Shown: positions 1 through 10,770 of the stretch, piece after piece | Layout of the letters: each line of letters starts with the position of its first letter | How positions within the stretch are numbered: the first letter of the stretch is position 1 | Virus record (IMG/VR): IMGVR_UViG_2695420514_000017 | Span: 1 to 21,434 of that record | Reading direction: 5' to 3' (one strand) | From: a virus | Lineage: Duplodnaviria > Heunggongvirae > Uroviricota > Caudoviricetes | DNA length: 21,434 nucleotides | Translations under genes and position numbers: made by a program | The notes under the pieces: model-generated | Told to the model about the DNA's origin: nothing | What the model saw: only the letters and a program-made list of their open reading frames with translations | Databases searched by the model: none

Positions 1-1944
1 ATGAGTAACGGAAATATTAAATATCGACCAGAGATTGACGGACTACGATCAATTGCAGTGTTATCAGTAATATTATTCCATGCAGGGATAACACAATTTT
101 CTGGCGGATTTATTGGCGTTGATGTTTTCTTTGTAATAAGTGGTTATCTTATAACCACTATACTTGTAAATGAGCAAGAAAAAGGATTCATAAGCATTTC
201 TAATTTTTACAGGAGAAGGGCCAAAAGAATAATTCCTGCACTTTTCTTGGTGATTGCGGTAACCACTCCAGCAGCGTATTTATATTTAGCACCAAAAGAA
301 CTTTCCTCATATATTTCTAGTATTTTATATACAGCCACATTCTCATCAAATTTTCTTTTTTGGCAGGAGTCTGGGTATTGGGATACTGCAACAGCGCTAA
401 AACCACTTATTCATACATGGAGTCTTGCGGTAGAAGAGCAATTTTATCTTATATTCCCATTCATTGTAATGATGTTTTGGAGATTCGGCGCAATACTGTT
501 TTCTTTGTTTCTTGCTATTCTTATGGCTGGTAGCCTCTGGCTTTCTCAAAACTCACTGCTTGATAACCCAATGTTTTCTTTCTACATGCTTCCTGCTAGA
601 GCATGGGAGCTATTTGCTGGTTCAATTATAGCTGTGCTGCTAAAGCGGAGTAACATATACAACAGTTCAGGAATATTCAACCAAGTGGCATCAATTGCTG
701 GTCTTTTGCTGATCGTGTTCCCTGTTTTTTATTATACAGGAAAAACAAAATTTCCAGGTATTTCAGCGATACCGCCAGTTCTTGGTGCGGGTCTAATTAT
801 AATCACATCAAACTCAAATACCATAGTTGGGCGCATTTTAGGATCCAAGCCTTTTGTTGCGGTTGGTCTAATAAGTTATAGCGCGTATTTATGGCATCAG
901 CCAGTACTTGCATTTCTAAAGATAATAACTTTAGGACGGATGGATGTTGTTGATTCTCTTTTAGCTGTTGGATTGATACTTATACTATCAACCATTACTT
1001 ATCATTTAGTTGAAAAGCCAGTGAGATTTGGTCATACATTTTTTGGCAAGTGGCCACTTTTAACTACAGGAATAGCCTCATGCTTAATCATCGTTGCCTC
1101 TTTTACAGCATCTAAAGGTAATGGATTCCCAGATAGAATCAACTCTGTATATAGCGCGAAAGCTCAGGCAGTTGAATTAAAGAATACTCAATCATTTGTT
1201 TCAGATACGGAACCAGGTGAAAATAAACCGATCATTCTCATCATTGGTGACTCCTACGTCAGAAACTGGTCTATAGGGCTAAGAGAAAAAATCAACACAT
1301 CTAAATACCGAGTTGTATCTTTGACTTATCGTGGATGTGATGTCGATGTAAAATCAGATTCAGTTTTTGCAAAGCCTATTGAAAGCGCCTATAAAGAAAA
1401 CTGCAAATACTTAACAGATATGTTGAACAATAAAAATATAACTTCTCATATTGATAAGGTATTCCTTACATCTCACAGGCCATTTGCATATATTGCAAAC
1501 AATTTCAGATTCAATCTATTGAAGTATATTTCTTCGCACTCAAATTCAAAACTATATATATTTGGAAATTATTTTCAATATCACCCTATGAAAACGCAGA
1601 CATGCCTAAGCTCTATGTTTATTGCAAAGAGAGATGCAAGAGTTTGCATAGATAGTTCAGAGTACAGTGGTAATGAAGGTAAGATCACCGATAAATTAGG
1701 ATTATATCGCCCAATGGACACCTTAGGTTTACCCTATACGTATATAGATATTAAAAGCATGATTTGTGATAAAAAATCTAAATCGTGCCCATATGAGTAC
1801 AATGGGGTTCCATTTATGATTGATACAAACCATTTAACTGCTACGTTCGCCAAATTCCTTATTAGAACTATCACAGATAAGAATGCCAGATACTTTTCAA
1901 AAATTGGTCTCTCAGATGTTTTTTCATTTGATAAACCTAATTGA
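1..1944 (+). CDS. O-antigen/LPS O-acetyltransferase: acyltransferase-3 (AT3) membrane domain fused to a C-terminal SGNH-type domain (OafA/Oac-like lysogenic-conversion protein)
   Basis: 647 aa ORF. N-terminus has the RPEIDGLRSIAV...FHAG motif typical of AT3 acyltransferases, followed by many hydrophobic segments over roughly the first 370 aa. The C-terminal soluble part carries GDSY (IILIIGDSYVRNW) and a D-x-x-H motif (MIDTNHL) as in SGNH hydrolases. Markedly AT-rich relative to the structural genes. ATG at window position 1, so the start cannot be confirmed against upstream sequence. Confidence 0.85.
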   Translation: MSNGNIKYRPEIDGLRSIAVLSVILFHAGITQFSGGFIGVDVFFVISGYLITTILVNEQEKGFISISNFYRRRAKRIIPALFLVIAVTTPAAYLYLAPKELSSYISSILYTATFSSNFLFWQESGYWDTATALKPLIHTWSLAVEEQFYLIFPFIVMMFWRFGAILFSLFLAILMAGSLWLSQNSLLDNPMFSFYMLPARAWELFAGSIIAVLLKRSNIYNSSGIFNQVASIAGLLLIVFPVFYYTGKTKFPGISAIPPVLGAGLIIITSNSNTIVGRILGSKPFVAVGLISYSAYLWHQPVLAFLKIITLGRMDVVDSLLAVGLILILSTITYHLVEKPVRFGHTFFGKWPLLTTGIASCLIIVASFTASKGNGFPDRINSVYSAKAQAVELKNTQSFVSDTEPGENKPIILIIGDSYVRNWSIGLREKINTSKYRVVSLTYRGCDVDVKSDSVFAKPIESAYKENCKYLTDMLNNKNITSHIDKVFLTSHRPFAYIANNFRFNLLKYISSHSNSKLYIFGNYFQYHPMKTQTCLSSMFIAKRDARVCIDSSEYSGNEGKITDKLGLYRPMDTLGLPYTYIDIKSMICDKKSKSCPYEYNGVPFMIDTNHLTATFAKFLIRTITDKNARYFSKIGLSDVFSFDKPN

Positions 1945-2000: not shown

Positions 2001-4241
2001 TTAATCGGCAAGACCAAAGTTTCCGCGTTTGATGACGCTTGTAGCAAACCCTAGTATGGCTGTTGTTACTGTTGAAGCATCAAAATGATTTCCGATAATA
2101 ATGGCGTTTTCTGTGTTGTTTCCACTAAACCCTCTGACAGCATTGTATATGGTATTACCATTAAACAACTTACTCCCTCCTAGTGTCGCGATATCAACGG
2201 CAGAGCCTTGAAGTCTTATAGTTGTCGATGTTCCTGATAATACACAGTTGCTTATTTTAAAACTCCTAAAGTCCTTGTTAGGCTTCTCCTGCTTTATTGC
2301 ATATGACAATGCAGTTGCCGCAGTTGTTCCAGTGTCCTGGATAGTTACTCCGTCAATGACTATCTCATCAAAATCTAGTATCCTTGCTCCTATTTTTGTT
2401 GTCCCAGAATTTAGGTTGCTTCCCTTTCTGTAGTTGATATCCTTGATAATCATCCTGTTTGTTGCGTACGTGACAGATTTTGCTTGAGAATAAATTAGAT
2501 TAGGTGCATCTCCAGTAAGGTAACCAGAGATGGAAAAGTCACCAACAGAACTTTGCACATAGAATACAAAGTCATATAGGCCTGATACATTAAATAATGT
2601 AATTCCGTTAATTCTGAAGTCCTGCGTCATTCCTATGCGCATTAGGGAGTCTGTAGTTCTGACTGTTGTATTTGGTATTCTGGCAGTCCCGTAACAGTCT
2701 ATATTATTAATTGAAAGGCCGACGACACCATTGGTTCCATCCAGAGAACGAGAGTGGATTGCTTCGCCGTAATTTCCATCTACTATACAATTTGATAAAA
2801 CTATATCGTTTATAGGGACACCAATCGCTCCAAAATAAAATCCACTGCATATCCCAGTTGGTGCTGTTTGACCAGTAGGAAGATTATCTATTGGAGGATT
2901 GTTCTTCGATGATGTGCACCTGTCGAAGTAAAATCCTCGTTGAACAAATCCTGAAGGTACAGATGTGTAATCGTGCCCATGTAAATTAAAACCAAAACCA
3001 CAGTTTGCTATAGCCTTGCAGTTCCTGAATGTGAGTCCAGATACCGGAACATCTGTAACTTTAAAACCACTGCAACTTTCAGTTGTCATCGTTCCTGGGC
3101 TAGGCATGAATGGTATCCCATTCTCTTCAGCGATGCATGATTCTAATAGAAGGTTGTCAATACCAAAATCCTCTGCGACACCACTTGTAACAGATGCGAT
3201 CCTAAATCCATCGTTATTTCTATATGAATAACAGTTTATTACTGTTGAGTCTTTAGCCCCTGTAATAAACAGCGGGTAAACCATTCCAAGACCTTTCATC
3301 CCTTCACAATAGAATCCAGATACCTGCCTGGTGGTACCAACCCTTATCCCTATAGCAATTTTAGGCTCCCTCTCTCCTTGGCTTCTAGACTCACCATCAA
3401 TAGTGAACTCTCCAAGTAATGACACGTTATCCTCATTAATTATGAAGTATTCGTGAGTATCAGCAGTTCCATCTGATTTGAATATGGCGTTATCGAACCT
3501 GAGTGACTGACCTTTCTTTAAAGAATGAAGACCCGTTGAAAGATATGTTCCGCTAGGAAAAAAAATTGAAGCATCATCTCCAGATGAGTTGATTAGGTTA
3601 TTAATTTCATTAGTGCTTGAGACGACACCGTGTGGATTGACTCCGAACCACAGAGCATTTATTTCTCCTTCATACAGCCTCTTCCAGCGTCTATTCAAGG
3701 AATCAACTAAAATTGTCCCATCGTTGTCAGCACTAACTGCATCTGAATCATCACGATAAAAGATGCCGTCAGCACCATCAAATGGCGATAATCGCCCGAA
3801 ACAATATATGTGGTCAAGTTGACCATTATACTCCCTTATTTGATTATATAATGCTCCACCTACATACCCAAAGCCATAGAAATCTCCTACTAATGTTCTA
3901 AACTGGTCTGGATTATACTTCAGAACATTCGGAAAATAGAACTGCTGCGCACCGTACGCATCATAAACAGCCATAGAGTGGCCTTGCACAGTTACGAACT
4001 TGGCAATCTGTCCGTTATATACCGGATATCCGGCAGCGTTAATGATGATTGGTTGCGAAACAGGAACGTGAGAACCGTCTTCGTTCTCCACATAAACCTG
4101 AATCTGGTTTTCAGGATTTACAGGGTCAGTGTCAATTTTACCGATATAAATTTTGCCATTGGCTACGGCTTTAAAAGAACGAGCCATAGTGAAGAGTTGC
4201 GAAGGCATGCTTACCACAACATTTGCGGTGATATCTGTCAT
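2001..4241 (-). CDS. Tailspike protein: P22 gp9-like N-terminal head-binding domain plus a divergent receptor-binding/depolymerase body
   Basis: 746 aa. The first ~115 aa ([34 protein letters not shown]...[13 protein letters not shown]...NVLKYNPDQ) closely match the P22/Sf6 tailspike head-binding domain as I recall it. The remainder is G/N/S/T-rich, typical of a beta-helix, and does not resemble the P22 endorhamnosidase body from memory. Minus-strand GGAG lies 9 nt upstream of the ATG. Confidence 0.9.
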
Positions 4242-4341: not shown

Positions 4342-5220
4342 TCAGTAGTTATGTACTGAAGGAGGTAATTCTTTATTCTTAAGTCTCATCCATGCGGAAA
4401 GATTCGTTGGTCCGTCTGGCTCATTGATATCAACATCTCGTGTGTGATTGATTAAAACGTCCCTCGCCATTCCGATAACATACGAGAACTCATGACCGTA
4501 GTCGTAGCATCTGCCGGAATAGTTCGATTGAATTTGTTTTAATGCCGGATACAGTTCGCGGAATAATGCCTGTGAGCGATTGGCATAATCCCATAACCAT
4601 ACAAGGCTGTTTGCTTCTTTTGCAGAAAGCTCGTTGACTTTCCTCTCTTGTTTGCCGATAAACTCGCCTTCAAGCACTACCCTGTGGATGTACTCTACGG
4701 CCAGCGGGATTTGTTCAATTGAAAGTTCATCAATGCTGTCAATACCAAAACGCTGATGAACCATATTGTATGCATCGTCATAGCGAAGTCCTTTCTTTCC
4801 TACCAGCATGTTTACTGCATCGCGTAGCGGTGTTCTTTCCTCAACAGTGGTTTTCTTGCCTTTCACATACTCTCCATGTTTGCGAATCGAAGGCAGAACT
4901 TCTGCTGTTACCCACTTGCGGAATTTGTGCGGGACTGAACCTTTATTGACAGCATCGCGGCAGCGCAGAACCAATGTATACATACCTGATTCGCTAACAA
5001 TGCTTAGATTCTGCTCACCACCAAGGGTGTAACTTAAAGTTACTCCCTTTTCATCGTCATCAAGTGCAGTAAGCGCCTTGCGTGAGTTAGTCAAAGATAA
5101 AGCATCACAAACATCTTTAGCTACAAACCACGGCTCACCGCACTTGTTGATGACGCGGATTTCACTGTCGCCGAATTTGAAGATGGTGAAATCGTTTTGT
5201 GCCTTTGCTATACTTTTCAT
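4342..5220 (-). CDS. ant: Antirepressor Ant (Bro-N domain protein)
   Basis: 292 aa. N-terminal Bro-N-like motif ([28 protein letters not shown]...RLDDDEKG...[17 protein letters not shown]) resembles P22 Ant as recalled. Position directly downstream of arc matches immI. Confidence 0.85.
5186..5214 (+). promoter_or_regulatory. Candidate Psar: extended -10 promoter inside the 5' end of ant, reading antisense
   Basis: TGcTATACT at 5206-5214 fits the extended -10 pattern (TGnTATAAT). Weak -35-like GTGAAA at 5186-5191 with a 17 bp spacer. Predicted start near 5221-5223, just past the ant start codon on the opposite strand. Confidence 0.4.
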
Positions 5221-5292
5221 GTCAATATTTCCTAATCCGATTTGTTGATAACGAAGCCCTGACTGTTACCGCAGTTGGGGCTTCAACTTTTT
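5221..5292 (+). ncRNA. sar: Candidate sar-like antisense RNA complementary to the ant ribosome-binding region
   Basis: Plus-strand hairpin at 5253-5284 (GAAGCCC...GGGCTTC outer stem with an inner GACTG/CAGTT extension) followed by aac-TTTTT (5288-5292) is an intrinsic terminator on the strand opposite arc-ant. With the extended -10 at 5206-5214 this predicts a roughly 70 nt RNA covering the complement of the ant RBS and start codon, as described for P22 sar (68-69 nt). Confidence 0.45.
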
Positions 5293-5456
5293 GCTAGATT
5301 ACCTTTAGAACTATCCCGCCTTAAACTATCCACCAACCGCATTACCATCTCGGTATTTATTGAGCGGCCATTTTCTTTCGCTGACTTCTCGATTGCTAAC
5401 TTAACCTCTAATGGGATGCGCAAAGGGTACTTTGGTGCGTCTGACTTGACTATCAT
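5283..5456 (-). CDS. arc: Arc repressor (ribbon-helix-helix)
   Basis: 57 aa from the ATG at 5454-5456 with a GGAGG RBS 4 nt upstream on the minus strand. PKYPLRIPLEVKLAIEKSAKENGRSINTEMVMRLV aligns with P22 Arc (FNLRWPREVLDLVRKVAEENGRSVNSEIYQRV) as recalled. The ORF-track start at 5471 is a TTG extension. Confidence 0.85.
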   Translation of the reverse strand: MIVKSDAPKYPLRIPLEVKLAIEKSAKENGRSINTEMVMRLVDSLRRDSSKGNLAKS

Positions 5457-5474
5457 ATTACCTCCAATCAATTT

Positions 5475-5491
5475 GGTATAACCGTTATACC
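5475..5491. promoter_or_regulatory. Perfect 17 bp palindrome; candidate Mnt-type operator over the Pant -10 and start site
   Basis: GGTATAAC-C-GTTATACC is a perfect 8-1-8 inverted repeat. It overlaps the predicted Pant -10 (5484-5489) and transcription start. P22 Omnt is likewise a 17 bp near-symmetric site overlapping the Pant start, from memory. Confidence 0.55.
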
Positions 5492-5512
5492 ATTGTGATC
5501 GCAGTGATGCAA
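5484..5512 (-). promoter_or_regulatory. Candidate Pant (promoter of the arc-ant operon)
   Basis: On the minus strand, TTGCAT (plus 5507-5512), 17 bp spacer, TATAAC (plus 5484-5489). Correctly placed upstream of the arc RBS. Confidence 0.5.
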
Positions 5513-5521
5513 TAGTAATAT
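5493..5521 (+). promoter_or_regulatory. Candidate Pmnt (divergent promoter for mnt)
   Basis: TTGTGA (5493-5498), 17 bp spacer, TAATAT (5516-5521), about 24 bp upstream of the mnt ATG. Its -35 abuts the Pant -35, giving back-to-back divergent promoters as in P22 immI. The region between them (about 5491-5516) is the expected place for an Arc operator, but I could not define one confidently. Confidence 0.4.
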
Positions 5522-5544: not shown

Positions 5545-5781
5545 ATGTCACGCGAAGAGCCGCAAATAAATATCAGGATTTCCAAAGAGTTAAAGGCAAA
5601 GGTTAAAGCCAGGGCGCAACATAACAAGCGTTCCATGAATGCTGAAATAATACAGATTATCGAAGATGCTGTTTGTGGTAGATCGCTTAATAGCAATGAA
5701 TTTGCTCAGAAAGAGGCTGACAAATTCAGGGATGCGCTGCTTGAAACACTGAAAACCATGTATGGTAAGGATGCAAAATGA
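5545..5781 (+). CDS. mnt: Mnt repressor (ribbon-helix-helix maintenance repressor)
   Basis: 78 aa. INIRISKELKAKVKARAQHNKRSMNAEIIQIIEDAV aligns with P22 Mnt (FNFRMPMEVREKLKFRAEANGRSMNSELLQIVQDAL) as recalled. GGAGG RBS 4 nt before the ATG. Divergent from arc. Confidence 0.85.
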   Translation: MSREEPQINIRISKELKAKVKARAQHNKRSMNAEIIQIIEDAVCGRSLNSNEFAQKEADKFRDALLETLKTMYGKDAK

Positions 5782-5987
5782 ATAAAAAACAGTTTATTAA
5801 GTCAAAAACGTCAAGCAAGGAAGAGCTAGAGAAAGAGCTAAACTCCCTGAAATACGCTCTGTGTCTGGTTTACTCAAGACTGCCAATGGAAGATAAAAAC
5901 GCTATTTACAATGAAATGATTAGCAGCCTTGATTTTAACGATAGAGACCTTGCATCCCACCTCAACAGCTTCCGCGTCCCTGAGTAA
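5778..5987 (+). CDS. Hypothetical 69 aa protein translationally coupled to mnt
   Basis: The ATG at 5778-5780 overlaps the mnt stop (ATGA). Hydrophilic, predicted helical (KEELEKELNSLKYAL). No family recognised. Confidence 0.55.
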   Translation: MNKKQFIKSKTSSKEELEKELNSLKYALCLVYSRLPMEDKNAIYNEMISSLDFNDRDLASHLNSFRVPE

Positions 5988-6147
5988 TTCTGTTGCGGAT
6001 TTGCTTCTTGCGGTGGTTTAGGCTGGAGAGCTTGGCTTCTGCTTCCGATATTTGCGCATCTAGATCTTTAAGCTCAAGATCTGAAAGTCGCTGGTCAAGC
6101 AGGGTTTGGTTTAACTCAATGTTGTTCAGGCGTTCTTCTATGGTCAT
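5962..6147 (-). CDS. Hypothetical small coiled-coil protein (61 aa from the second ATG)
   Basis: MTIEERLNNIELNQTLLDQRLSDLELKDLDAQISEAEAKL shows heptad-like periodicity. AGGA lies about 8 nt upstream of the ATG at 6145-6147 on the minus strand. Convergent with, and overlapping by 26 bp, the 3' end of the preceding plus ORF, so it is uncertain. Confidence 0.4.
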   Translation of the reverse strand: MTIEERLNNIELNQTLLDQRLSDLELKDLDAQISEAEAKLSSLNHRKKQIRNRITQGRGSC

Positions 6148-6178
6148 AACTTTCATCCTATAACTATTTGGAATCAAA

Positions 6179-6361
6179 ATGAAAAATATATTAATTGGTT
6201 TCGTTTTTGGTGCAGCCTGCGCCGCCAGCATTAGCGTCATCGCCGCCCAGGTTGTTGGTGGTAACTCATATCTAATGGGCTATGACGTCATGATAAATGG
6301 AGAGGTTGTTTGCTCAGATCCTTATGTATGGACCTCGACAAAAGAAATAGAATGTGACTAA
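6179..6361 (+). CDS. Hypothetical small membrane-anchored or secreted peptide (60 aa) with two Cys in the C-terminal part
   Basis: Hydrophobic N-terminus [26 protein letters not shown] (signal peptide or single TM helix), then a 35 aa tail with two Cys (…[20 protein letters not shown]). Weak RBS (GGAA) but a clear intrinsic terminator immediately after the stop. Confidence 0.5.
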
Positions 6362-6363
6362 TA

Positions 6364-6389
6364 CCAGCCTGATGGCTGGTTAATTTTTT
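6364..6389 (+). terminator. Rho-independent terminator after the 60 aa peptide gene
   Basis: CCAGCC-tgat-GGCTGG hairpin (6364-6379) followed by TTAATTTTTT (6380-6389), 3 bp after the stop codon. Confidence 0.6.
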
Positions 6390-6471: not shown

Positions 6472-6651
6472 ATGGCGAAAAAACCAGGTGAAAACACAGG
6501 AAAAAACGGCGGAATATACCAAGAAGTTGGCCCGCGCGGCGGTAAGAAAGACAATTTTGCCACCGTCAAGGACAACGAAAGGCTTCCGCCAACAACAAAG
6601 CCAGGTCATGGCTGGGTATTAGATAAGCGAACTCCAGACAGCAAAAAGTAA
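6472..6651 (+). CDS. YjzC-like small protein (59 aa)
   Basis: MAKKPGENTGKNGGIYQEVGPRGGKKDNFATVKDNERLPPTTKPGHGWV follows the KPG...G.Y.E.G..G......V.....LP.T...G.W pattern I associate with the YjzC-like family. GAGG RBS 6 nt before the ATG at 6472. An upstream in-frame ATG at 6457 has a poorer RBS. Confidence 0.65.
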   Translation: MAKKPGENTGKNGGIYQEVGPRGGKKDNFATVKDNERLPPTTKPGHGWVLDKRTPDSKK

Positions 6652-6657
6652 TAATCA

Positions 6658-6680
6658 AGCCGGGTCACTCCGGCTTTTTG
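6658..6680 (+). terminator. Rho-independent terminator after the YjzC-like gene
   Basis: AGCCGG-gtcact-CCGGCT hairpin (6658-6675) followed by TTTT-G (6676-6680), 7 bp after the stop. The stop codon of the convergent minus-strand HExxH ORF lies inside the hairpin. Confidence 0.65.
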
Positions 6681-7030
6681 ATATGTCGCTCGCAGAACTC
6701 AACAAGCCTGCTCATTAAGTAGCAGTAAGTCTCGTTGGCTCTTCCTGGTTCAACATCAACACCGACCCTTGAGCAGATATCGAATGCCATGTGAGCGCAC
6801 TCATGGGCAATAGTAGATAGTTTGCCATTGAACACACCTATCACATGCAAAACACCATTCTCGCTGCTCATTGTATGAGACGCTCCGTTGGCATCCGAGT
6901 CCTGCACGTCCACGCCAAGTTTTTGATGCAGGCGTTGCCATTCTGGAAAGTCTCTGCAAAACACAATCGTACCGCTCTCAAAGAGCGGTACGAGCATCTT
7001 TGGTACGTTTCCAATGTTAACTTTTTTCAT
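6665..7030 (-). CDS. Hypothetical 121 aa protein with an HExxH motif (possible small zinc metallopeptidase-like or Zn-binding protein)
   Basis: From the ATG at 7028-7030 (AGGA 4 nt upstream on the minus strand): MKKVNIGNVPK...STIAHECAHMAFDICSRVGVDVEPGRANETYCYLMSRLVEF. HECAH with a downstream Glu and nearby Cys suggests metal binding. Sequence looks protein-like, unlike the overlapping N-terminal extension of the plus ORF. The ORF-track start at 7069 is a TTG. Confidence 0.5.
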   Translation of the reverse strand: MKKVNIGNVPKMLVPLFESGTIVFCRDFPEWQRLHQKLGVDVQDSDANGASHTMSSENGVLHVIGVFNGKLSTIAHECAHMAFDICSRVGVDVEPGRANETYCYLMSRLVEFCERHIKKPE

Positions 7031-7060: not shown

Positions 7061-7450
7061 GTGAAGCAATTTCTTGCTGCTATGTTCTTATTCATATCTT
7101 TTGGGGCTACAGCAGAGTGCTGGGTCGTTGGAGATATGCGCGGAATAAGCTATTCAGAACGCAATAATTTCCATCCGGTAGAAGATGGTTTTAGTGGAAC
7201 ATTCACCATTAAGACAAGCGGTGAAGATGCCAGCATCACATATTCTGGTACAGATGCGGGCGGCATGGCTTACAAAGCATTGTCTAAAAACTCCATCATA
7301 GGAATCGGCGCGAATGGCGAAACTCAACGCGTTATCGACTCATGGGTAATACATCCTACTGGAACAGTTTTAATGTCAAAAACCATTTCCGGTTATGGAA
7401 ATATGGATTCAACCAAAGCTTTTGTTGGAAAAGTAAAAAGAAAATGTTAG
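7061..7450 (+). CDS. Hypothetical secreted (periplasmic) protein, about 129 aa precursor, predicted Sec signal peptide
   Basis: Strong AAGGAGG RBS (7049-7055) 5 nt before an in-frame GTG at 7061. N-terminus MKQFLAAMFLFISFGATA|ECWVV has an n/h/c signal-peptide layout with an A-x-A cleavage site. Mature part is beta-rich (TFTIKTSGEDASITYSGTDAGG...) with Cys at both ends. The 72-codon upstream extension in the ORF track is antisense to the HExxH ORF and not credible. Confidence 0.6.
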   Translation: MKQFLAAMFLFISFGATAECWVVGDMRGISYSERNNFHPVEDGFSGTFTIKTSGEDASITYSGTDAGGMAYKALSKNSIIGIGANGETQRVIDSWVIHPTGTVLMSKTISGYGNMDSTKAFVGKVKRKC

Positions 7451-7474: not shown

Positions 7475-9385
7475 TTACTGCTGTGTTGCCTCAGTAGCAA
7501 ACAGCGGCCTGACGGCATTTGCAGCGTTACTTAACGCTCTTTCATAGGCTGGTGTTCCAGCTTTAGTGTTTGCCAGACGTAAGAGCGCATTCCTTGCTGC
7601 TTTGGACTCGTACAAGCGCATGATTGCACCGAAACCAGCCTCAAGTCCCAGTGATACACCAAGGGTTGCAGTTGCGCCAATCGTTCTAATCCTGTTAGCT
7701 TGCGATTGTCCTGTCTGTGTTACTACATTTGCGGCGTCCGACCTTGCTGTTTGCTGTAGAACTTCATGAAGAGCATCAAGCTCTTTCATGTGTCTCCCAC
7801 TGAATATAGTGTTATAGATCTGACCGTCAGATTGCGACTTCAACTTATTTAACTCGGTAAGAAATTTTGTTGGCGAGTCTCCTGCTTTTTCTGCAATCTT
7901 GCTGATATAAGCAGCACGCATAGCGTTCTTTCCATCTTCACTAAGAGCAGGCCATATCCTCTTAATATCTGATGGTTTTCTGCTGAATACAACGCTGTTT
8001 ATTAGCTCTGGAGTAAACTCTTTTTTAGCTTTGTTGAGATTATTCGCAATCCTTTTATTGAGAACTTTATTGAAGACGTTGGAGTAGTCAGAGTTTGCTT
8101 TGACGTATCTGGCGGCCTCTCCAGCCCCCAAATACCGCGCTGCGTTATTCCTCAAATCTGCCCCCATTGCCCTCTCCACGGCATCAGTTGCGGCTTTCGC
8201 GCTATTAGGAAAAACCATGGCATCTCCCTGAATACTTTCCCTCAAGGCTGACCGCAACTCTCTCAATAGACCAAAATCTATATCTGGTTTAGCAAGTTCT
8301 TCTCGCAAATCGGATAACCCGCGAATCAAATCCTTATTTGCCACTTTCCCAAGCCTGTTAGCTCTGGTAAGTACGTTGTCGATAACCTTAATAGATTTTG
8401 ATGTGTCAACAGGTGTGTCTCCCATTTTGGTTGTAATGTCTTCAATAACGCTTCCGGCCGAATCCTTCCTTGACTTCAGAGAACCATACAGATCGTCAAC
8501 AACAACTGATGGGCTATATTCACCATATTTCTCAAGCTGTTTTTTAACTAGCTGACTTCTTTTTGCATATTGCTCAGCTCGCTTTGAGCCTGTTCCCAGC
8601 AAAGCCCCCTCAGCATCCTGAGTAAGACCACGAGTGAAAGCATTTTTCGGCGGGATTACATCAGATGTCATTGGTGTCACGCCCATCGATTCTGATGTGG
8701 CAATTTTCTTCGCCACTTCTGGTGCAATATCACCTTTAAAGGCAGTTATTCCACGCTCAAGCCCTTTTGCAACAGTATTAACAGCACCACCTGTTAGCAT
8801 GCCAACACCTATATCTGTTGCCAGTTTTCCCGCATCATTTTTCTCACTGTTTGCGGCGAGCGATCCGACTGCGTTTTCTGCCAGAAGACGGGCTGCGCCT
8901 TGAGTAATTCGACCAGCAAGTGTTGGCGCCTGAGTTGAAGCGCCGCCAACGCCAACAGTAGCCAGGTAAGGCAATGCCTCCGCAAACACCCTACCTTCTG
9001 TCGTTTGTGGAGTCAGAGCACCTTGCTGAAGTCCAAACGCCTGCTCTAATCCCTGAGTTGTTACTCGTGGCGCTGGTTGATATGTTCCATCGCCAATACC
9101 GAGTTTACCGCCAGCCCATGCCGCCGCGCTTGTTACAGCATCGGCAACTGATGCTGGTATATTTGCCACATTTACACCAGCCTGCACCAGTCCGCGACCA
9201 GTTTCTTTTACTGCTTCGCCGAGGTCAGACATAAATCCATCTTGCTGTTCTACAGGCTGCTTTTGGTTTTGAGTTGGTTGATTACTGGAGGACAGAATCT
9301 GAGCGATGCGACGTGCTCCCTCAGTATCACCAGCAGCATCAGCATTCCTTAACGCCGTCATCAATTGTTCACGACTATAAGCCAT
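7475..9385 (-). CDS. Ejection (E) protein, P22 gp16 homolog
   Basis: 636 aa. Position, size and N-terminus ([29 protein letters not shown]) are consistent with P22 gp16. Its ATG overlaps the gp20 stop (TAATG). Confidence 0.9.
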   Translation of the reverse strand: MAYSREQLMTALRNADAAGDTEGARRIAQILSSSNQPTQNQKQPVEQQDGFMSDLGEAVKETGRGLVQAGVNVANIPASVADAVTSAAAWAGGKLGIGDGTYQPAPRVTTQGLEQAFGLQQGALTPQTTEGRVFAEALPYLATVGVGGASTQAPTLAGRITQGAARLLAENAVGSLAANSEKNDAGKLATDIGVGMLTGGAVNTVAKGLERGITAFKGDIAPEVAKKIATSESMGVTPMTSDVIPPKNAFTRGLTQDAEGALLGTGSKRAEQYAKRSQLVKKQLEKYGEYSPSVVVDDLYGSLKSRKDSAGSVIEDITTKMGDTPVDTSKSIKVIDNVLTRANRLGKVANKDLIRGLSDLREELAKPDIDFGLLRELRSALRESIQGDAMVFPNSAKAATDAVERAMGADLRNNAARYLGAGEAARYVKANSDYSNVFNKVLNKRIANNLNKAKKEFTPELINSVVFSRKPSDIKRIWPALSEDGKNAMRAAYISKIAEKAGDSPTKFLTELNKLKSQSDGQIYNTIFSGRHMKELDALHEVLQQTARSDAANVVTQTGQSQANRIRTIGATATLGVSLGLEAGFGAIMRLYESKAARNALLRLANTKAGTPAYERALSNAANAVRPLFATEATQQ

Positions 9386-10770
9386 TACTGCCCTCCGAGA
9401 TATTTGCTAATTAATTCGTCATCGGACAATTGCTGTTGAGGTTGGCTATCGCCATAACTTGAGGAAAGAAAACGTTTTGCCGCAGAGTTCAATGATTCAC
9501 CCTTCTTAACATCCATCCCCATGATGTTTCGGTTGCGATCAGATTGTCCTGGGCTGCCGTTTGCACTCATCCACTCTGACCTAAACTCGTTGAACTTCGC
9601 GTTATTACTTTCCATTTTTGCCATACCCCTTAACCATCGAGCCATGACCATTGGATTATCCGTTTCGCTTGGAATACCTTTCCTTGCAAACTCAATATCC
9701 TTATCTGATGCAGGGCCTGGAGGGAGAAGCTTGGTTGCCTGCGCATTGGCTAGTTGGTTGAATCTAATCCGCATATCTCGGAGGTAGTTATCTTGCCCCG
9801 TAAGCTTAGAGAACATATTTTCAGCGTTACCGAACAAACCAGGAGTTGGCTTCTCCTTCTCCAGCGTGTCAGCGAGCGTTGTCATTGAATCGGCAGCATT
9901 ACGACTAGCTGCCGCATCACCTGCTGATTTTTCTATAGCCTTTTCCATGTTCACTGATAATTTTGGCGCAGCATTAATAAGTTCCTCGGCCTTTTTTTGT
10001 GCCTGTTGTACTTCAAAACCGAATTTCTGCTTATCAAGTGCCAGTCTTTCTGCTGCAAGTCCGTGTCCGGTCATTGCAGACTGATAGGAAAGGTTTTGCC
10101 CCCTAATAGCCCTCGCATTCGTCATGTCATTATTGCGAATGGTTTCGTTAATTCTTTGCTGCTCCTGCTGGCGACCAACCATCTTATCCTGAACAGCAAA
10201 CGCCTTTTCTGGTCCAAGCGCACCGAGAGACATAGTAGTCAGCATGTGTGATAGCTGCTCTGGATTCTGAATACCTGTCTGAATCATCCAGTCAGCATTA
10301 GCGCCAACGCGATTTAACCTGTCCTTGTTGTCAGTAATGAATTTACTGTAGGCTTCCGGTCCCTGAGAAAGAGCGACGTTAGCCCTCATGGCTAAATCGC
10401 CCATATCGTTGCGTTGCTGCTCATTAAGACCGGAAAATGCCTGTTGTGCCTGTGCAACAAACGCTGGATTTTCCTGGGCAAACTTAAATAGTCCCGATGG
10501 ATCACCAGAAGCCCATGCATCAGCATGAACCTTATTGAACGCATTAATCGCTTTCTGTTGCTGTTCCTGCTTATAAATATCAGCAACTCCAGCCAGACCA
10601 CGTAACGCGGTCAGACCAACGTTATTTGCACTTGAGCGAGCCAGTTCATTGTTTTCGCGGATCAGACCAAGCGTTGCGTTAATGTCGCTTGCCTTTGGCG
10701 CATTCTCGTTTTGCGCACCAATGCCAGCCAGAAAACCACCAGAATTAATACCCTGTTGCCACGTAGCCAT
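9385..10770 (-). CDS. Ejection (E) protein, P22 gp20 homolog
   Basis: 461 aa, helical and Q/A-rich, in the syntenic position between the gp7 and gp16 homologs. Confidence 0.9.

What the first reader, a model, noticed from the sequence alone, without database searches (positions are those of the whole stretch)
5778..6147. Small ORF co-translated with the Mnt repressor, and a convergent coiled-coil ORF
The 69 aa ORF starts with an ATGA overlap on the mnt stop codon, so it should be made whenever Mnt is made, that is in the lysogen. A function tied to lysogenic maintenance or immunity is plausible but unknown. The convergent 61 aa heptad-repeat ORF overlaps its 3' end by 26 bp; one of the two may be spurious, or they may regulate each other by antisense overlap.
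Basis: partly seen in the sequence, partly recalled or inferred. Interest (0 to 1): 0.45.

Follow-up and report, generated by a model that had tools for sequence, protein, structure and literature searches.

The report
Conserved convergent small-gene pair beside mnt
Both small overlapping reading frames next to the Mnt repressor gene of this P22-like prophage are real, selected protein genes that travel together in related phages, one on the prophage-expressed strand and one on the late (lytic) strand, but what they do is still unknown.

Summary
A 69-aa ORF (5778-5987, +) starts with an ATGA overlap on the stop codon of an Mnt-like repressor gene. A 61-aa all-helical ORF (5962-6147, -) overlaps its 3' end by 26 nt.

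Neither ORF is spurious. In each true frame dN/dS is 0.03-0.15, and the other frames fail the same test. The pair recurs in P22-like prophages of Escherichia, Salmonella, Serratia and Providencia, down to about 30-45% identity. In every case the orf69 homologue follows mnt or one intervening gene, usually with ATGA, and faces a 60-61-aa 'MTIEERL...' gene.

The overlap itself varies: 26, 23 or 10 nt, or a 10-nt gap.

orf69 lies on the Pmnt (prophage) strand. orf61 lies on the late-operon strand, the same strand as gp20 and the tailspike. It always has a Shine-Dalgarno sequence but no conserved promoter, and often sits directly after an intrinsic terminator. I infer that it is read from antiterminated late transcripts.

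No known family, fold or defence model matches either protein. RefSeq's 'XhlA' name is unsupported.

This is a real, previously uncharacterised two-gene cassette in the known hypervariable 'ant moron'. Interest is modest.

The parts
5545..5781 (+). mnt-like ribbon-helix-helix repressor gene (78 aa), the cistron upstream of orf69
   Evidence: Pfam Arc E=6.8e-13. 35% identity to P22 Mnt over the full length. Divergent from the arc-ant genes, with sar RNA nearby.
5767..5781 (+). Translation-coupling junction: AAGGA Shine-Dalgarno (5767-5771), 6-nt spacer, ATGA (orf69 ATG 5778-5780 overlapping the mnt TGA 5779-5781)
   Evidence: Read from the sequence. The same (A/G)AAGGA-N6-ATGA junction is found in L106, L107, L109, Emek, L113, L114 and L120.
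5778..5987 (+). orf69, a 69-aa three-helix protein of unknown function (phrog_16466), on the prophage (Pmnt) strand
   Evidence: phrog_16466 E=4.6e-51. Allele survey gives 14 synonymous, 4 nonsynonymous and 0 stop changes. dN/dS 0.04-0.15. Remote homologues P0090, P0091 and P0093. AF2 predicts 3 helices at pLDDT 77.
5962..5987 (.). 26-nt dual-coding 3' overlap of orf69 and orf61
   Evidence: 2 of 26 sites segregate when orf69 is intact, against 12 of 26 when orf69 is absent (Fisher p=0.004). The rest of orf61 is equally variable in both groups. The overlap stays near-identical in diverged pairs.
5962..6147 (-). orf61, a 61-aa single-helix (coiled-coil-like) protein of unknown function (phrog_7586), on the late-operon strand
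   Evidence: phrog_7586 E=3.3e-44. 32 synonymous, 19 nonsynonymous and 0 stop changes in this frame, against 9-20 synonymous in the other frames. dN/dS 0.03-0.15. Mosaic breakpoints fall exactly at its stop and start codons. AF2 helix 3-60 at pLDDT 94.
6148..6159 (-). orf61 ribosome-binding site (AGGA at 6159-6156, 8 nt before the ATG)
   Evidence: Read from the sequence. A Shine-Dalgarno sequence is present in every one of the many different upstream contexts.
6179..6380 (+). orf60 (60-aa signal-peptide protein, phrog_37095) plus an intrinsic terminator at 6363-6380. Inferred to be the distal end of the Pmnt-strand unit, which would read antisense through orf61.
   Evidence: Kapi1 annotation gives signal residues 1-22.
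5474..5492 (.). 19-bp perfect palindrome TGGTATAAC-c-GTTATACCA between arc and mnt. Putative Mnt operator; a putative weak Pmnt (TTGTGA 5493-5498, 17-nt spacer, TAATAT 5516-5521) lies next to it.
   Evidence: The palindrome lies within inverted repeat I1. The promoter was read from the sequence and is an inference. The position parallels the P22 mnt operator annotation.

Best explanation
orf69 and orf61 are two genuine small protein-coding genes. They form a conserved, convergently arranged cassette just after mnt, in the hypervariable 'ant moron' (immI region) of P22-like phages.

orf69 encodes a three-helix protein. It is the cistron distal to mnt on the prophage-expressed strand, and its ribosome-binding site and ATGA start are embedded in the 3' end of the upstream gene. 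Its translation is therefore coupled to whatever lies upstream.

orf61 encodes a single long helix and probably oligomerises as a coiled coil. It lies on the opposite strand, which is the strand of the late operon (gp7-gp20-gp16 ... arc-ant-tailspike). It carries its own Shine-Dalgarno sequence but no recognisable promoter. I infer that it is made from Q/gp23-antiterminated late transcripts that read through this region on the way to the tailspike gene.

Because no terminator separates the two genes, each transcript runs antisense through the other gene. This would make their expression mutually exclusive: orf69 in the prophage state and orf61 in lytic growth. The 26-nt overlap itself is a dual-coding by-product of tight packing, not the regulatory element.

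Shown here: gene reality, the conserved pairing, the coupling signals, the strand assignment and the dual-coding constraint.
Inferred: which promoters drive each gene, and the mutual exclusivity.
Unknown: the biochemical function. My best guess is small protein-binding accessory factors, not structural or enzymatic proteins.
For: Purifying selection in both true frames only:
- Allele surveys give orf61 32 synonymous / 19 nonsynonymous / 0 stop changes and orf69 14 / 4 / 0.
- Nei-Gojobori dN/dS is 0.03-0.15 with saturated dS in the true frames, against 0.17 to more than 2 in the control frames.

Dual-coding constraint:
- The overlap is about 13-fold less diverse when orf69 is intact.

The pair is conserved:
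- The same 26-nt overlap occurs at about 75-80% amino-acid identity in L106-L109, including Serratia.
- Homologues at about 30-45% identity occur in Providencia prophages (L111-L114) and in L120. Each has mnt, then an ATGA-coupled orf63/64, then a convergent 60-aa 'MTIEERL...' gene.
- Pairwise identities of the two proteins co-vary (Spearman 0.92).
- All 37 IMG/VR orf69 loci carry orf61.

Coupling signals are conserved behind different upstream genes.

Strand assignment:
- The tailspike (Head_binding) and gp20 (Inj_translocase) genes are on the minus strand, like orf61.
[quoted passage not shown] The region lies 'inside the late operon' (PMC8022706).

No dedicated orf61 promoter is apparent:
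- The upstream sequence differs among contexts but always has a Shine-Dalgarno sequence.
- In about a quarter of the loci listed the terminator AACCCACCGTCAGGTGGGTTTTTT ends about 14 nt before the ATG.
- In other loci sieA or a secreted-protein gene starts divergently 25-31 nt away.
- No consistent sigma-70 match was found.

The P22 mnt operon is annotated to extend past mnt to a terminator after orf59a. The window has the equivalent terminators at 6363-6380 and 6657-6676.
Against: - There is no direct expression or protein data for either gene.
- In the near-identical phage Kapi1, lysogen RNA-seq did not detect mnt above threshold. Kapi1_061 and Kapi1_062 were not on the undetected list, but those cultures contain spontaneously induced cells (PMC12922286). 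Co-expression with mnt in lysogens is therefore unproven.
- A consensus scan is a weak negative for promoters. Weak 8/12 matches do exist, for example TGCACC-18-TATATT 37 nt upstream of orf61 in the window's context.
- orf61 persists at 93-100% identity without orf69, next to a 105-aa secreted protein, a ClpP-like protease or a 122-aa protein. The two genes are therefore not strictly interdependent, and adjacency could be historical.
- An orf69-family member (P0093) sits alone in a siphovirus tail region with no orf61-like partner.
Confidence: 0.6

Rival explanations
1. The two genes are unrelated small accessory genes that are neighbours only by history. Convergence and overlap have no functional meaning, and each acts alone.
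For: - Recombination breakpoints fall exactly at the orf61 stop (5962) and start (6147). orf61 occurs next to at least four different convergent neighbours.
- P0093 occurs without a partner.
- The overlap length varies, and a recombinant with a 10-nt gap exists.
Against: - The pairing survives divergence to about 30-45% identity in three lineages, while both flanks change (Mnt type, downstream cargo).
- All 37 IMG/VR orf69 loci carry orf61, and so do the diverged and Providencia-type P22-like loci examined.
- orf69 remnants remain next to orf61 where orf69 was replaced: the ClpP context and L110.
Confidence: 0.25
2. The pair is a two-component system split between life-cycle states. orf69 would be a prophage-expressed effector (toxin, exclusion or abortive-infection factor). 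orf61 would be its late-expressed antagonist or self-immunity factor, or the roles are reversed.
For: - The strand partition between prophage and late strands is conserved.
- The two proteins co-diverge.
- orf69 shares its slot with lysogen-type cargo such as SieA, secreted proteins and a Rap1a-like immunity protein.
- Anecdote: a Kapi1 deletion construct carrying flanks of 'hyp19' was toxic in non-lysogens, and the authors blamed a flanking hypothetical gene (PMC8787464). By my count of the annotation, hyp19 is Kapi1_058. The flank lengths and the responsible gene are unknown.
Against: - Neither protein matches a PADLOC, Pfam or NCBIfam model.
- orf61 is kept without orf69.
- There is no toxicity or interaction data for either protein.
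- The Kapi1 anecdote could equally involve Kapi1_059 or Kapi1_060.
Confidence: 0.1
3. mnt-orf69 is a type II toxin-antitoxin-like operon: an RHH antitoxin followed by a small overlapping toxin.
For: - The RHH protein hits FitA-like and HicB models.
- The ATGA-overlapped downstream small ORF is the classic toxin-antitoxin layout.
Against: - orf69 is coupled to at least three Mnt types at about 35% identity. It also sits behind unrelated genes: orf77 in Emek and a 92-aa ORF in L111.
- The same Mnt is followed by a ClpP-like protease instead in L006.
- The locus carries the sar RNA (Rfam match), arc, ant and a palindrome in the operator position, so this Mnt is the immI repressor.
- No toxin family matches orf69.
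Confidence: 0.03
4. orf61 is not a gene. The 186-nt module is conserved for a plus-strand RNA or DNA function, such as a 3' UTR or a promoter for the downstream gene.
For: - The Pmnt-strand transcript is inferred to cross it.
- A weak plus-strand promoter-like motif (TTCTAT-17-TATAAC, 6136-6164) overlaps its start. The TATAGGAT motif is conserved in Providencia.
Against: - The substitution pattern is that of a minus-strand coding frame.
- The plus-strand frames contain stops.
- The ORF length of 60-61 codons and the N-terminal MTIEERL are kept at about 30% identity.
- A Shine-Dalgarno sequence is present in all contexts.
- There is no significant RNA structure and no Rfam hit.
Confidence: 0.02

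Closest known systems
P22 immI / 'ant moron' accessory genes (mnt-orf59a operon, sieA, hkc genes) between gene 16 and gene 9
   Same: - Same genomic slot between the ejection-protein genes and the tailspike gene.
- Same mnt-arc-ant-sar core. orf69 takes the place directly after mnt, upstream of the orf59a homologue (6472-6651).
- The region is known to be hypervariable and crossed by late transcription.
   Different: - P22 itself has neither gene. Only Kapi1, Emek and S.Kent among 50,697 phage records do, and all annotate them as hypothetical.
- A conserved convergent pair with one member on the late strand has not been described for this region in the papers I could read.
Lambdoid 'ATGA' translationally coupled gene strings (e.g. 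the nin region)
   Same: A stop-start ATGA overlap with a Shine-Dalgarno sequence inside the upstream gene, a motif noted for lambdoid phages in PMC8022706.
   Different: Here the junction travels with the downstream gene as part of its mosaic module. It is re-used behind different upstream genes.
XhlA (PF10779), the name RefSeq gives the 89-92-aa version of orf61
   Same: Weak similarity of the N-terminal coiled-coil part, aligned from residue 3 to profile position 2 in all three lineages.
   Different: - Scores are 10.6-14.1 bits against a 34.7-bit cut-off.
- There is no transmembrane segment (maximum Kyte-Doolittle 0.07).
- The gene is not in the lysis cassette.
- The 89-92-aa form depends on an unconserved upstream start.
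Convergent 3'-overlapping sense/antisense pairs (type I toxin-antitoxin loci such as fst/RNAII or txpA/ratA; P22 sar/ant)
   Same: Convergent transcription units overlap at their 3' ends with no terminator between them, in a locus that already uses an antisense RNA (sar).
   Different: - Both partners here encode proteins under purifying selection.
- The overlap length is not conserved.
- No RNA structure was detected.

Membership tests
P22-type immI region (mnt-arc-ant-sar) in a Lederbergvirus late operon | sar antisense RNA between arc and ant | tested here: met
   Rfam RF00262 sar at 5222-5288 (+), 69.4 bits against a gathering score of 43.
P22-type immI region (mnt-arc-ant-sar) in a Lederbergvirus late operon | Divergent Arc-family RHH genes (arc, mnt) with ant downstream of arc, placed between the ejection-protein genes and the tailspike gene | tested here: met
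   - Arc domain in 5283-5456 (-) and 5545-5781 (+).
- Bro-N and P22_AR_C domains in 4342-5220 (-).
- Head_binding tailspike at 2001-4241 (-) and Inj_translocase at 9385-10770 (-).
P22-type immI region (mnt-arc-ant-sar) in a Lederbergvirus late operon | Palindromic Mnt operator overlapping the divergent promoters | tested here: inconclusive
   A perfect 19-bp palindrome lies at 5474-5492 in the right place. Binding was not testable.
PHROG phrog_16466 (orf69) and phrog_7586 (orf61), both of unknown function | Full-length significant match to the family profile | tested here: met
   E=4.6e-51 over 1-69 of 69 positions, and E=3.3e-44 over 1-61 of 61 positions.
XhlA haemolysin family (PF10779) | Score above the Pfam gathering threshold | tested here: not met
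   14.1 bits for the 61-aa form and 12.3 bits for the 92-aa form, against a 34.7-bit cut-off. The Providencia and L120 homologues score 11.7 and 10.6 bits.
XhlA haemolysin family (PF10779) | C-terminal membrane anchor and a location in a lysis cassette (from established knowledge of PBSX xhlA-xhlB-xlyA) | tested here: not met
   - No hydrophobic segment: maximum Kyte-Doolittle over a 15-residue window is 0.07.
- The gene lies in the immI region, far from the holin and endolysin genes (for Kapi1).
Type II toxin-antitoxin operon (RHH antitoxin plus toxin) | A cognate, co-inherited antitoxin-toxin pair with a recognisable toxin | tested here: not met
   - orf69 follows several Mnt types and also unrelated genes.
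- The same Mnt precedes a ClpP-like gene in L006.
- No toxin model matches orf69.
Moron (independently expressed insert with its own promoter and terminator) | Own promoter upstream and terminator downstream of the gene | tested here: not met
   - orf61 has no consistent promoter-like site in any context and no terminator after its stop.
- orf69 has no promoter of its own, because its start lies inside mnt.
- The scans are consensus-based, so this is a weak negative.
Known anti-phage defence proteins (PADLOC-DB) | Significant match to a defence-system model | tested here: not met
   orf69 has no hits. orf61 has only coiled-coil noise: PbeC at E=7e-4 over 43 residues of a 652-position model, and JetC.

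The most novel reading that the evidence does not exclude
The cassette is a switch split between life-cycle states. orf69 would be a prophage-strand effector, such as an exclusion, abortive-infection or toxic factor, made with Mnt. orf61 would be a late-strand coiled-coil antagonist made only once antiterminated late transcription crosses the region. Convergent transcription would enforce the either/or choice. This would be a protein-level self-immunity pair analogous in logic to prophage defence systems with cognate self-immunity.
Probability: 0.1. Interest if true: 0.65.

Novelty: new member of a known kind. Interest (0 to 1): 0.3.

Why it matters
The region between the ejection-protein genes and the tailspike gene of P22-like phages is a known hot-spot for prophage-expressed accessory genes such as sieA and mnt.

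This work shows that two of its smallest 'hypothetical' ORFs are real and under selection. They are linked as a convergent pair across four enterobacterial genera. They sit on opposite 'lifestyle' strands. Together these results give two concrete, cheap targets for deletion and expression experiments in a tractable phage (Kapi1 in E. coli MP1).

It also corrects two database problems. RefSeq's 89-92-aa 'hemolysin XhlA family protein' is an over-extended start with an unsupported name. Several gene callers skip one of the two genes because of the overlap.

If the pair turns out to be an effector and antagonist, it would add a new small-protein module to prophage immunity. If not, it remains a tidy example of dual-coding constraint at a 3' gene overlap.

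Tried and rejected
Family and structure searches
- Pfam, NCBIfam, PADLOC and PHROG scans gave no functional assignment for either protein.
- PDB sequence-profile searches gave only noise: eIF4A at E=0.44, and the HY5 coiled coil at E=0.017.

Homologue searches
- An exhaustive profile search of 1.84 billion representatives with orf69 found only 7 proteins. Two of them (P0089, P0092) are repetitive chance matches.
- The genome-contig scan with the orf61 profile confirmed nothing.

RNA-level explanations
- There is no Rfam family in 5778-6147.
- Folding energy at the convergence point is not significant: z = 0.07 and -0.84.
- No terminator-like site lies between the genes.

orf61 start codon
- The 92-aa start at 6240 and the MKV start at 6156 were rejected. 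Mosaic breakpoints and all other contexts begin at the ATG at 6147.

Other ideas
- An 'anti-Mnt' role for orf61 was considered and set aside. The same orf61 (98-100% identical) sits beside Mnt proteins that share only about 35% identity.
- Supplementary expression tables of the Kapi1 RNA-seq paper are not held, so per-gene values for Kapi1_061 and Kapi1_062 could not be read.

Full report
**Context**

The window is a P22-like (Lederbergvirus) prophage or phage segment.
- The minus strand carries the late genes. These include an Inj_translocase (gp20-like) gene at 9385-10770 and a Head_binding tailspike gene at 2001-4241.
- Between them lies the immI region, also called the 'ant moron'.
- ant is at 4342-5220 (-) with Bro-N and P22_AR_C domains. 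arc is at 5283-5456 (-). An Mnt-like RHH gene is at 5545-5781 (+).
- The sar antisense RNA is found by Rfam at 5222-5288 (69.4 bits).
- A perfect 19-bp palindrome lies at 5474-5492, where P22 has its mnt operator.
- The best phage matches are Kapi1 (98%) and Emek.

- The mnt TGA (5779-5781) overlaps the orf69 ATG (5778-5780).
- AAGGA lies 6 nt upstream of that ATG.
- orf69 ends at 5987.
- orf61 runs from 6147 to 5962 on the minus strand, with AGGA 8 nt upstream.
- The two genes share 26 nt.

**Both ORFs are real genes**

I oriented 104 related loci from IMG/VR, phage records and E. coli genomes on the window.

*orf61*
- The 186-nt orf61 module has 48 distinct DNA alleles, and most encode the same protein.
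- Changes are 32 synonymous, 19 nonsynonymous and 0 stop in the orf61 frame. The other five frames show 9-20 synonymous changes and 3-7 stops.

*orf69*
- It shows 14 synonymous, 4 nonsynonymous and 0 stop changes.
- The antisense frame that shares its wobble positions scores similarly, but it is broken into ORFs of 30 aa or fewer.

*dN/dS*
- I compared the window with diverged copies: L106, L107, Serratia L109 and Emek.
- Nei-Gojobori dN/dS is 0.03-0.15 in both true frames, with dS at or near saturation.
- Control frames give 0.17 to more than 2.

Neither ORF is spurious.

**The overlap is dual-coding**

A natural experiment supports this.
- orf61 also occurs where orf69 has been replaced.
- With orf69 intact, 2 of 26 overlap sites segregate (pi = 0.009).
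- Without orf69, 12 of 26 segregate (pi = 0.11; Fisher p = 0.004).
- The remaining 160 nt of orf61 are similarly variable in both sets (22 against 28 sites).

The extra constraint on the overlap therefore comes from orf69. The last eight residues of orf61 are only weakly constrained.

This agrees with remote orf69 homologues, which conserve D-x-D-x-[AG]-[ST]-x-[LI]-N-x-[FY] up to the overlap.

**The pair is a conserved cassette**

- Copies at about 75-80% identity in other E. coli-type prophages and in Serratia keep the same 26-nt overlap.
- An exhaustive profile search found only a handful of orf69 relatives.
- Two of these (P0090 and P0091; 50% identity over 54 residues for P0090) lie in Providencia and metagenomic P22-like prophages. 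There they follow mnt with an ATGA overlap (L113, L114, L120), or follow one intervening gene (L111).
- Each is faced by a convergent 60-aa gene that begins MTIEERL like orf61 (40% identity over 43 residues, ungapped from residue 1).
- The overlaps there are 10 and 23 nt. A recombinant (L122) has a 10-nt gap.
- Pairwise identities of the two proteins co-vary (Spearman 0.92 over 15 pairs).
- All 37 IMG/VR orf69 loci also carry orf61.

The reverse does not hold.
- orf61, at 93-100% identity, also faces a 105-aa secreted protein, a ClpP-like protease (with a degraded orf69 3' remnant) or a 122-aa protein.
- E. coli matches break exactly at the orf61 stop (5962) and start (6147).
- One orf69-family member (P0093) sits alone in a siphovirus tail region.

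**Expression logic (partly inferred)**

*orf69*
- In P22 the mnt transcript is annotated to continue through orf59a to a terminator.
- In the window the plus strand carries mnt, orf69, orf60 and a terminator (6363-6380), then the orf59a homologue and a second terminator (6657-6676).
- The orf69 Shine-Dalgarno sequence and ATGA travel with orf69 behind different upstream genes. Coupling is therefore a built-in feature.

*orf61*
- It is on the late strand.
- Its upstream sequence differs between contexts but always supplies a Shine-Dalgarno sequence.
- In about a quarter of the loci listed, a strong intrinsic terminator ends about 14 nt before the ATG.
- In other loci sieA or a secreted-protein gene starts divergently only 25-31 nt away.
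- No consistent promoter-like site is found.
- Late-promoter RNA polymerase is known to read through this region into the tailspike gene in P22 (PMC2629481; PMC8022706).

The simplest reading is that orf61 is translated from antiterminated late transcripts, while orf69 belongs to the prophage-strand unit. No terminator or stable structure separates them. Each transcript is therefore antisense to the whole of the other gene.

**Published data**

RNA-seq of Kapi1 lysogen cultures (PMC12922286):
- mnt (Kapi1_063) was below the detection threshold.
- Kapi1_061 and Kapi1_062 were not listed as undetected.
- Late genes were abundant because of spontaneous induction.
[quoted passage not shown] That is the late strand in that record.

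This is compatible with late read-through. It also warns against assuming strong mnt-orf69 expression in lysogens. Per-gene values were not available.

**Function**

Nothing known matches either protein.
- AlphaFold2 predicts orf69 as three helices (pLDDT 77) and orf61 as one 58-residue helix (pLDDT 94).
- Neither is hydrophobic.
- The RefSeq name 'hemolysin XhlA family protein' rests on a sub-threshold coiled-coil similarity and an over-extended start. The defining membrane anchor is absent.
- A toxin-antitoxin reading of mnt-orf69 is contradicted by the many different upstream partners.
- An effector-antagonist reading of orf69-orf61 is not excluded. It has only circumstantial support, including an anecdote of a toxic cloned flank in Kapi1 (PMC8787464; my gene mapping is).

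**Verdict**

The 'spurious ORF' worry is removed. The feature is best described as a conserved convergent two-gene cassette of unknown function in a known hypervariable accessory region. It is present in about 2.4% of complete E. coli genomes (130 of 5,426). It is a useful annotation and experimental lead, but not a surprising one.

Noticed in passing
window 5222-5288 (+): A clear sar antisense RNA (Rfam RF00262, 69.4 bits) lies between ant and arc. It coincides with the terminator-like hairpin at 5253-5284 found by the scan.
   Followed up: partly
window 5474-5492 and 5493-5521: A perfect 19-bp palindrome TGGTATAAC-c-GTTATACCA lies in the arc-mnt intergenic region. It is a likely Mnt operator of a specificity different from P22. 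Next to it is a weak promoter-like TTGTGA-17-TAATAT facing mnt. Providencia locus L113 has TGAACCACCGTGGTTCA at the same place.
   Followed up: partly
window 6136-6164 (+); L113 2290-2340: A weak plus-strand promoter-like motif TTCTAT-17-TATAAC overlaps the start codon and Shine-Dalgarno sequence of orf61 and faces orf60. The shared TATAGGAT/ATCCTATA motif is conserved in Providencia, where it reads TATAAT. One short sequence may therefore serve as the Shine-Dalgarno sequence on one strand and the -10 element on the other.
   Followed up: partly
window 6179-6361 (+), terminator 6363-6380: orf60 is a 60-aa protein with a signal peptide and four cysteines (phrog_37095, unknown function). It is divergent from orf61 and followed by a good intrinsic terminator.
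   Followed up: no
window 6472-6651 (+), terminator 6657-6676: This is a homologue of P22 orf59a (phrog_3202). It has a sub-threshold YjzC-like Pfam match (E=0.0013) and a hairpin that reads as a terminator on both strands.
   Followed up: no
window 6665-7030 (-): A 121-aa protein on the late strand carries an HECAH (HExxH-like) motif (phrog_1365, unknown function). It could be a small metallopeptidase-like accessory protein.
   Followed up: no
window 7085-7450 (+); L044, L066: A 122-aa signal-peptide protein with no family match. In some prophages orf61 sits immediately after this gene instead of after orf69, so orf61 moves as an independent module.
   Followed up: partly
L006 2434-2970; L005 2674-2991; L002 2287-2520; L113 2354-2701: The position just after mnt is a cargo slot. 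It can hold a ClpP-like protease (PF00574, E=4.8e-12), a 105-aa secreted protein, Emek orf77 or orf69. Further downstream in the Providencia prophage is a Rap1a-like (type VI immunity) protein.
   Followed up: partly
L044, L063, L081, L086, L095 and others, about 14-40 nt upstream of orf61: A nearly identical strong terminator, AACCCACCGTCAGGTGGGTTTTTT, is fused directly to the orf61 Shine-Dalgarno sequence behind several unrelated upstream genes. It appears to be a mobile terminator-plus-gene unit.
   Followed up: partly
window 1-1944 (+): A 647-aa ORF that begins at the window's left edge, so it may continue upstream, carries Acyl_transf_3 and SGNH domains. It lies beyond the tailspike gene and is likely an O-antigen acetyltransferase for lysogenic conversion.
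   Followed up: no
window 5962-6240 (-); RefSeq E. coli records: RefSeq and Kapi1 annotate an 89-92-aa version of orf61 that starts inside orf60 on the opposite strand. Some records name it 'hemolysin XhlA family protein'. Both the start and the name look wrong. Conversely, some gene callers omit orf61 or orf69 altogether (L106, L107, L109).
   Followed up: yes
Kapi1 MT813197 30414-33571 (L123): The Kapi1 authors could not delete 'hyp19' because the construct was toxic in non-lysogens, and double-crossover screening gave an unusually high rate of prophage loss. They blamed a flanking hypothetical gene. By my count hyp19 is Kapi1_058 (gp16-like). Its downstream flank holds Kapi1_059 to Kapi1_062, which include the orf61 and orf69 homologues.
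   Followed up: no
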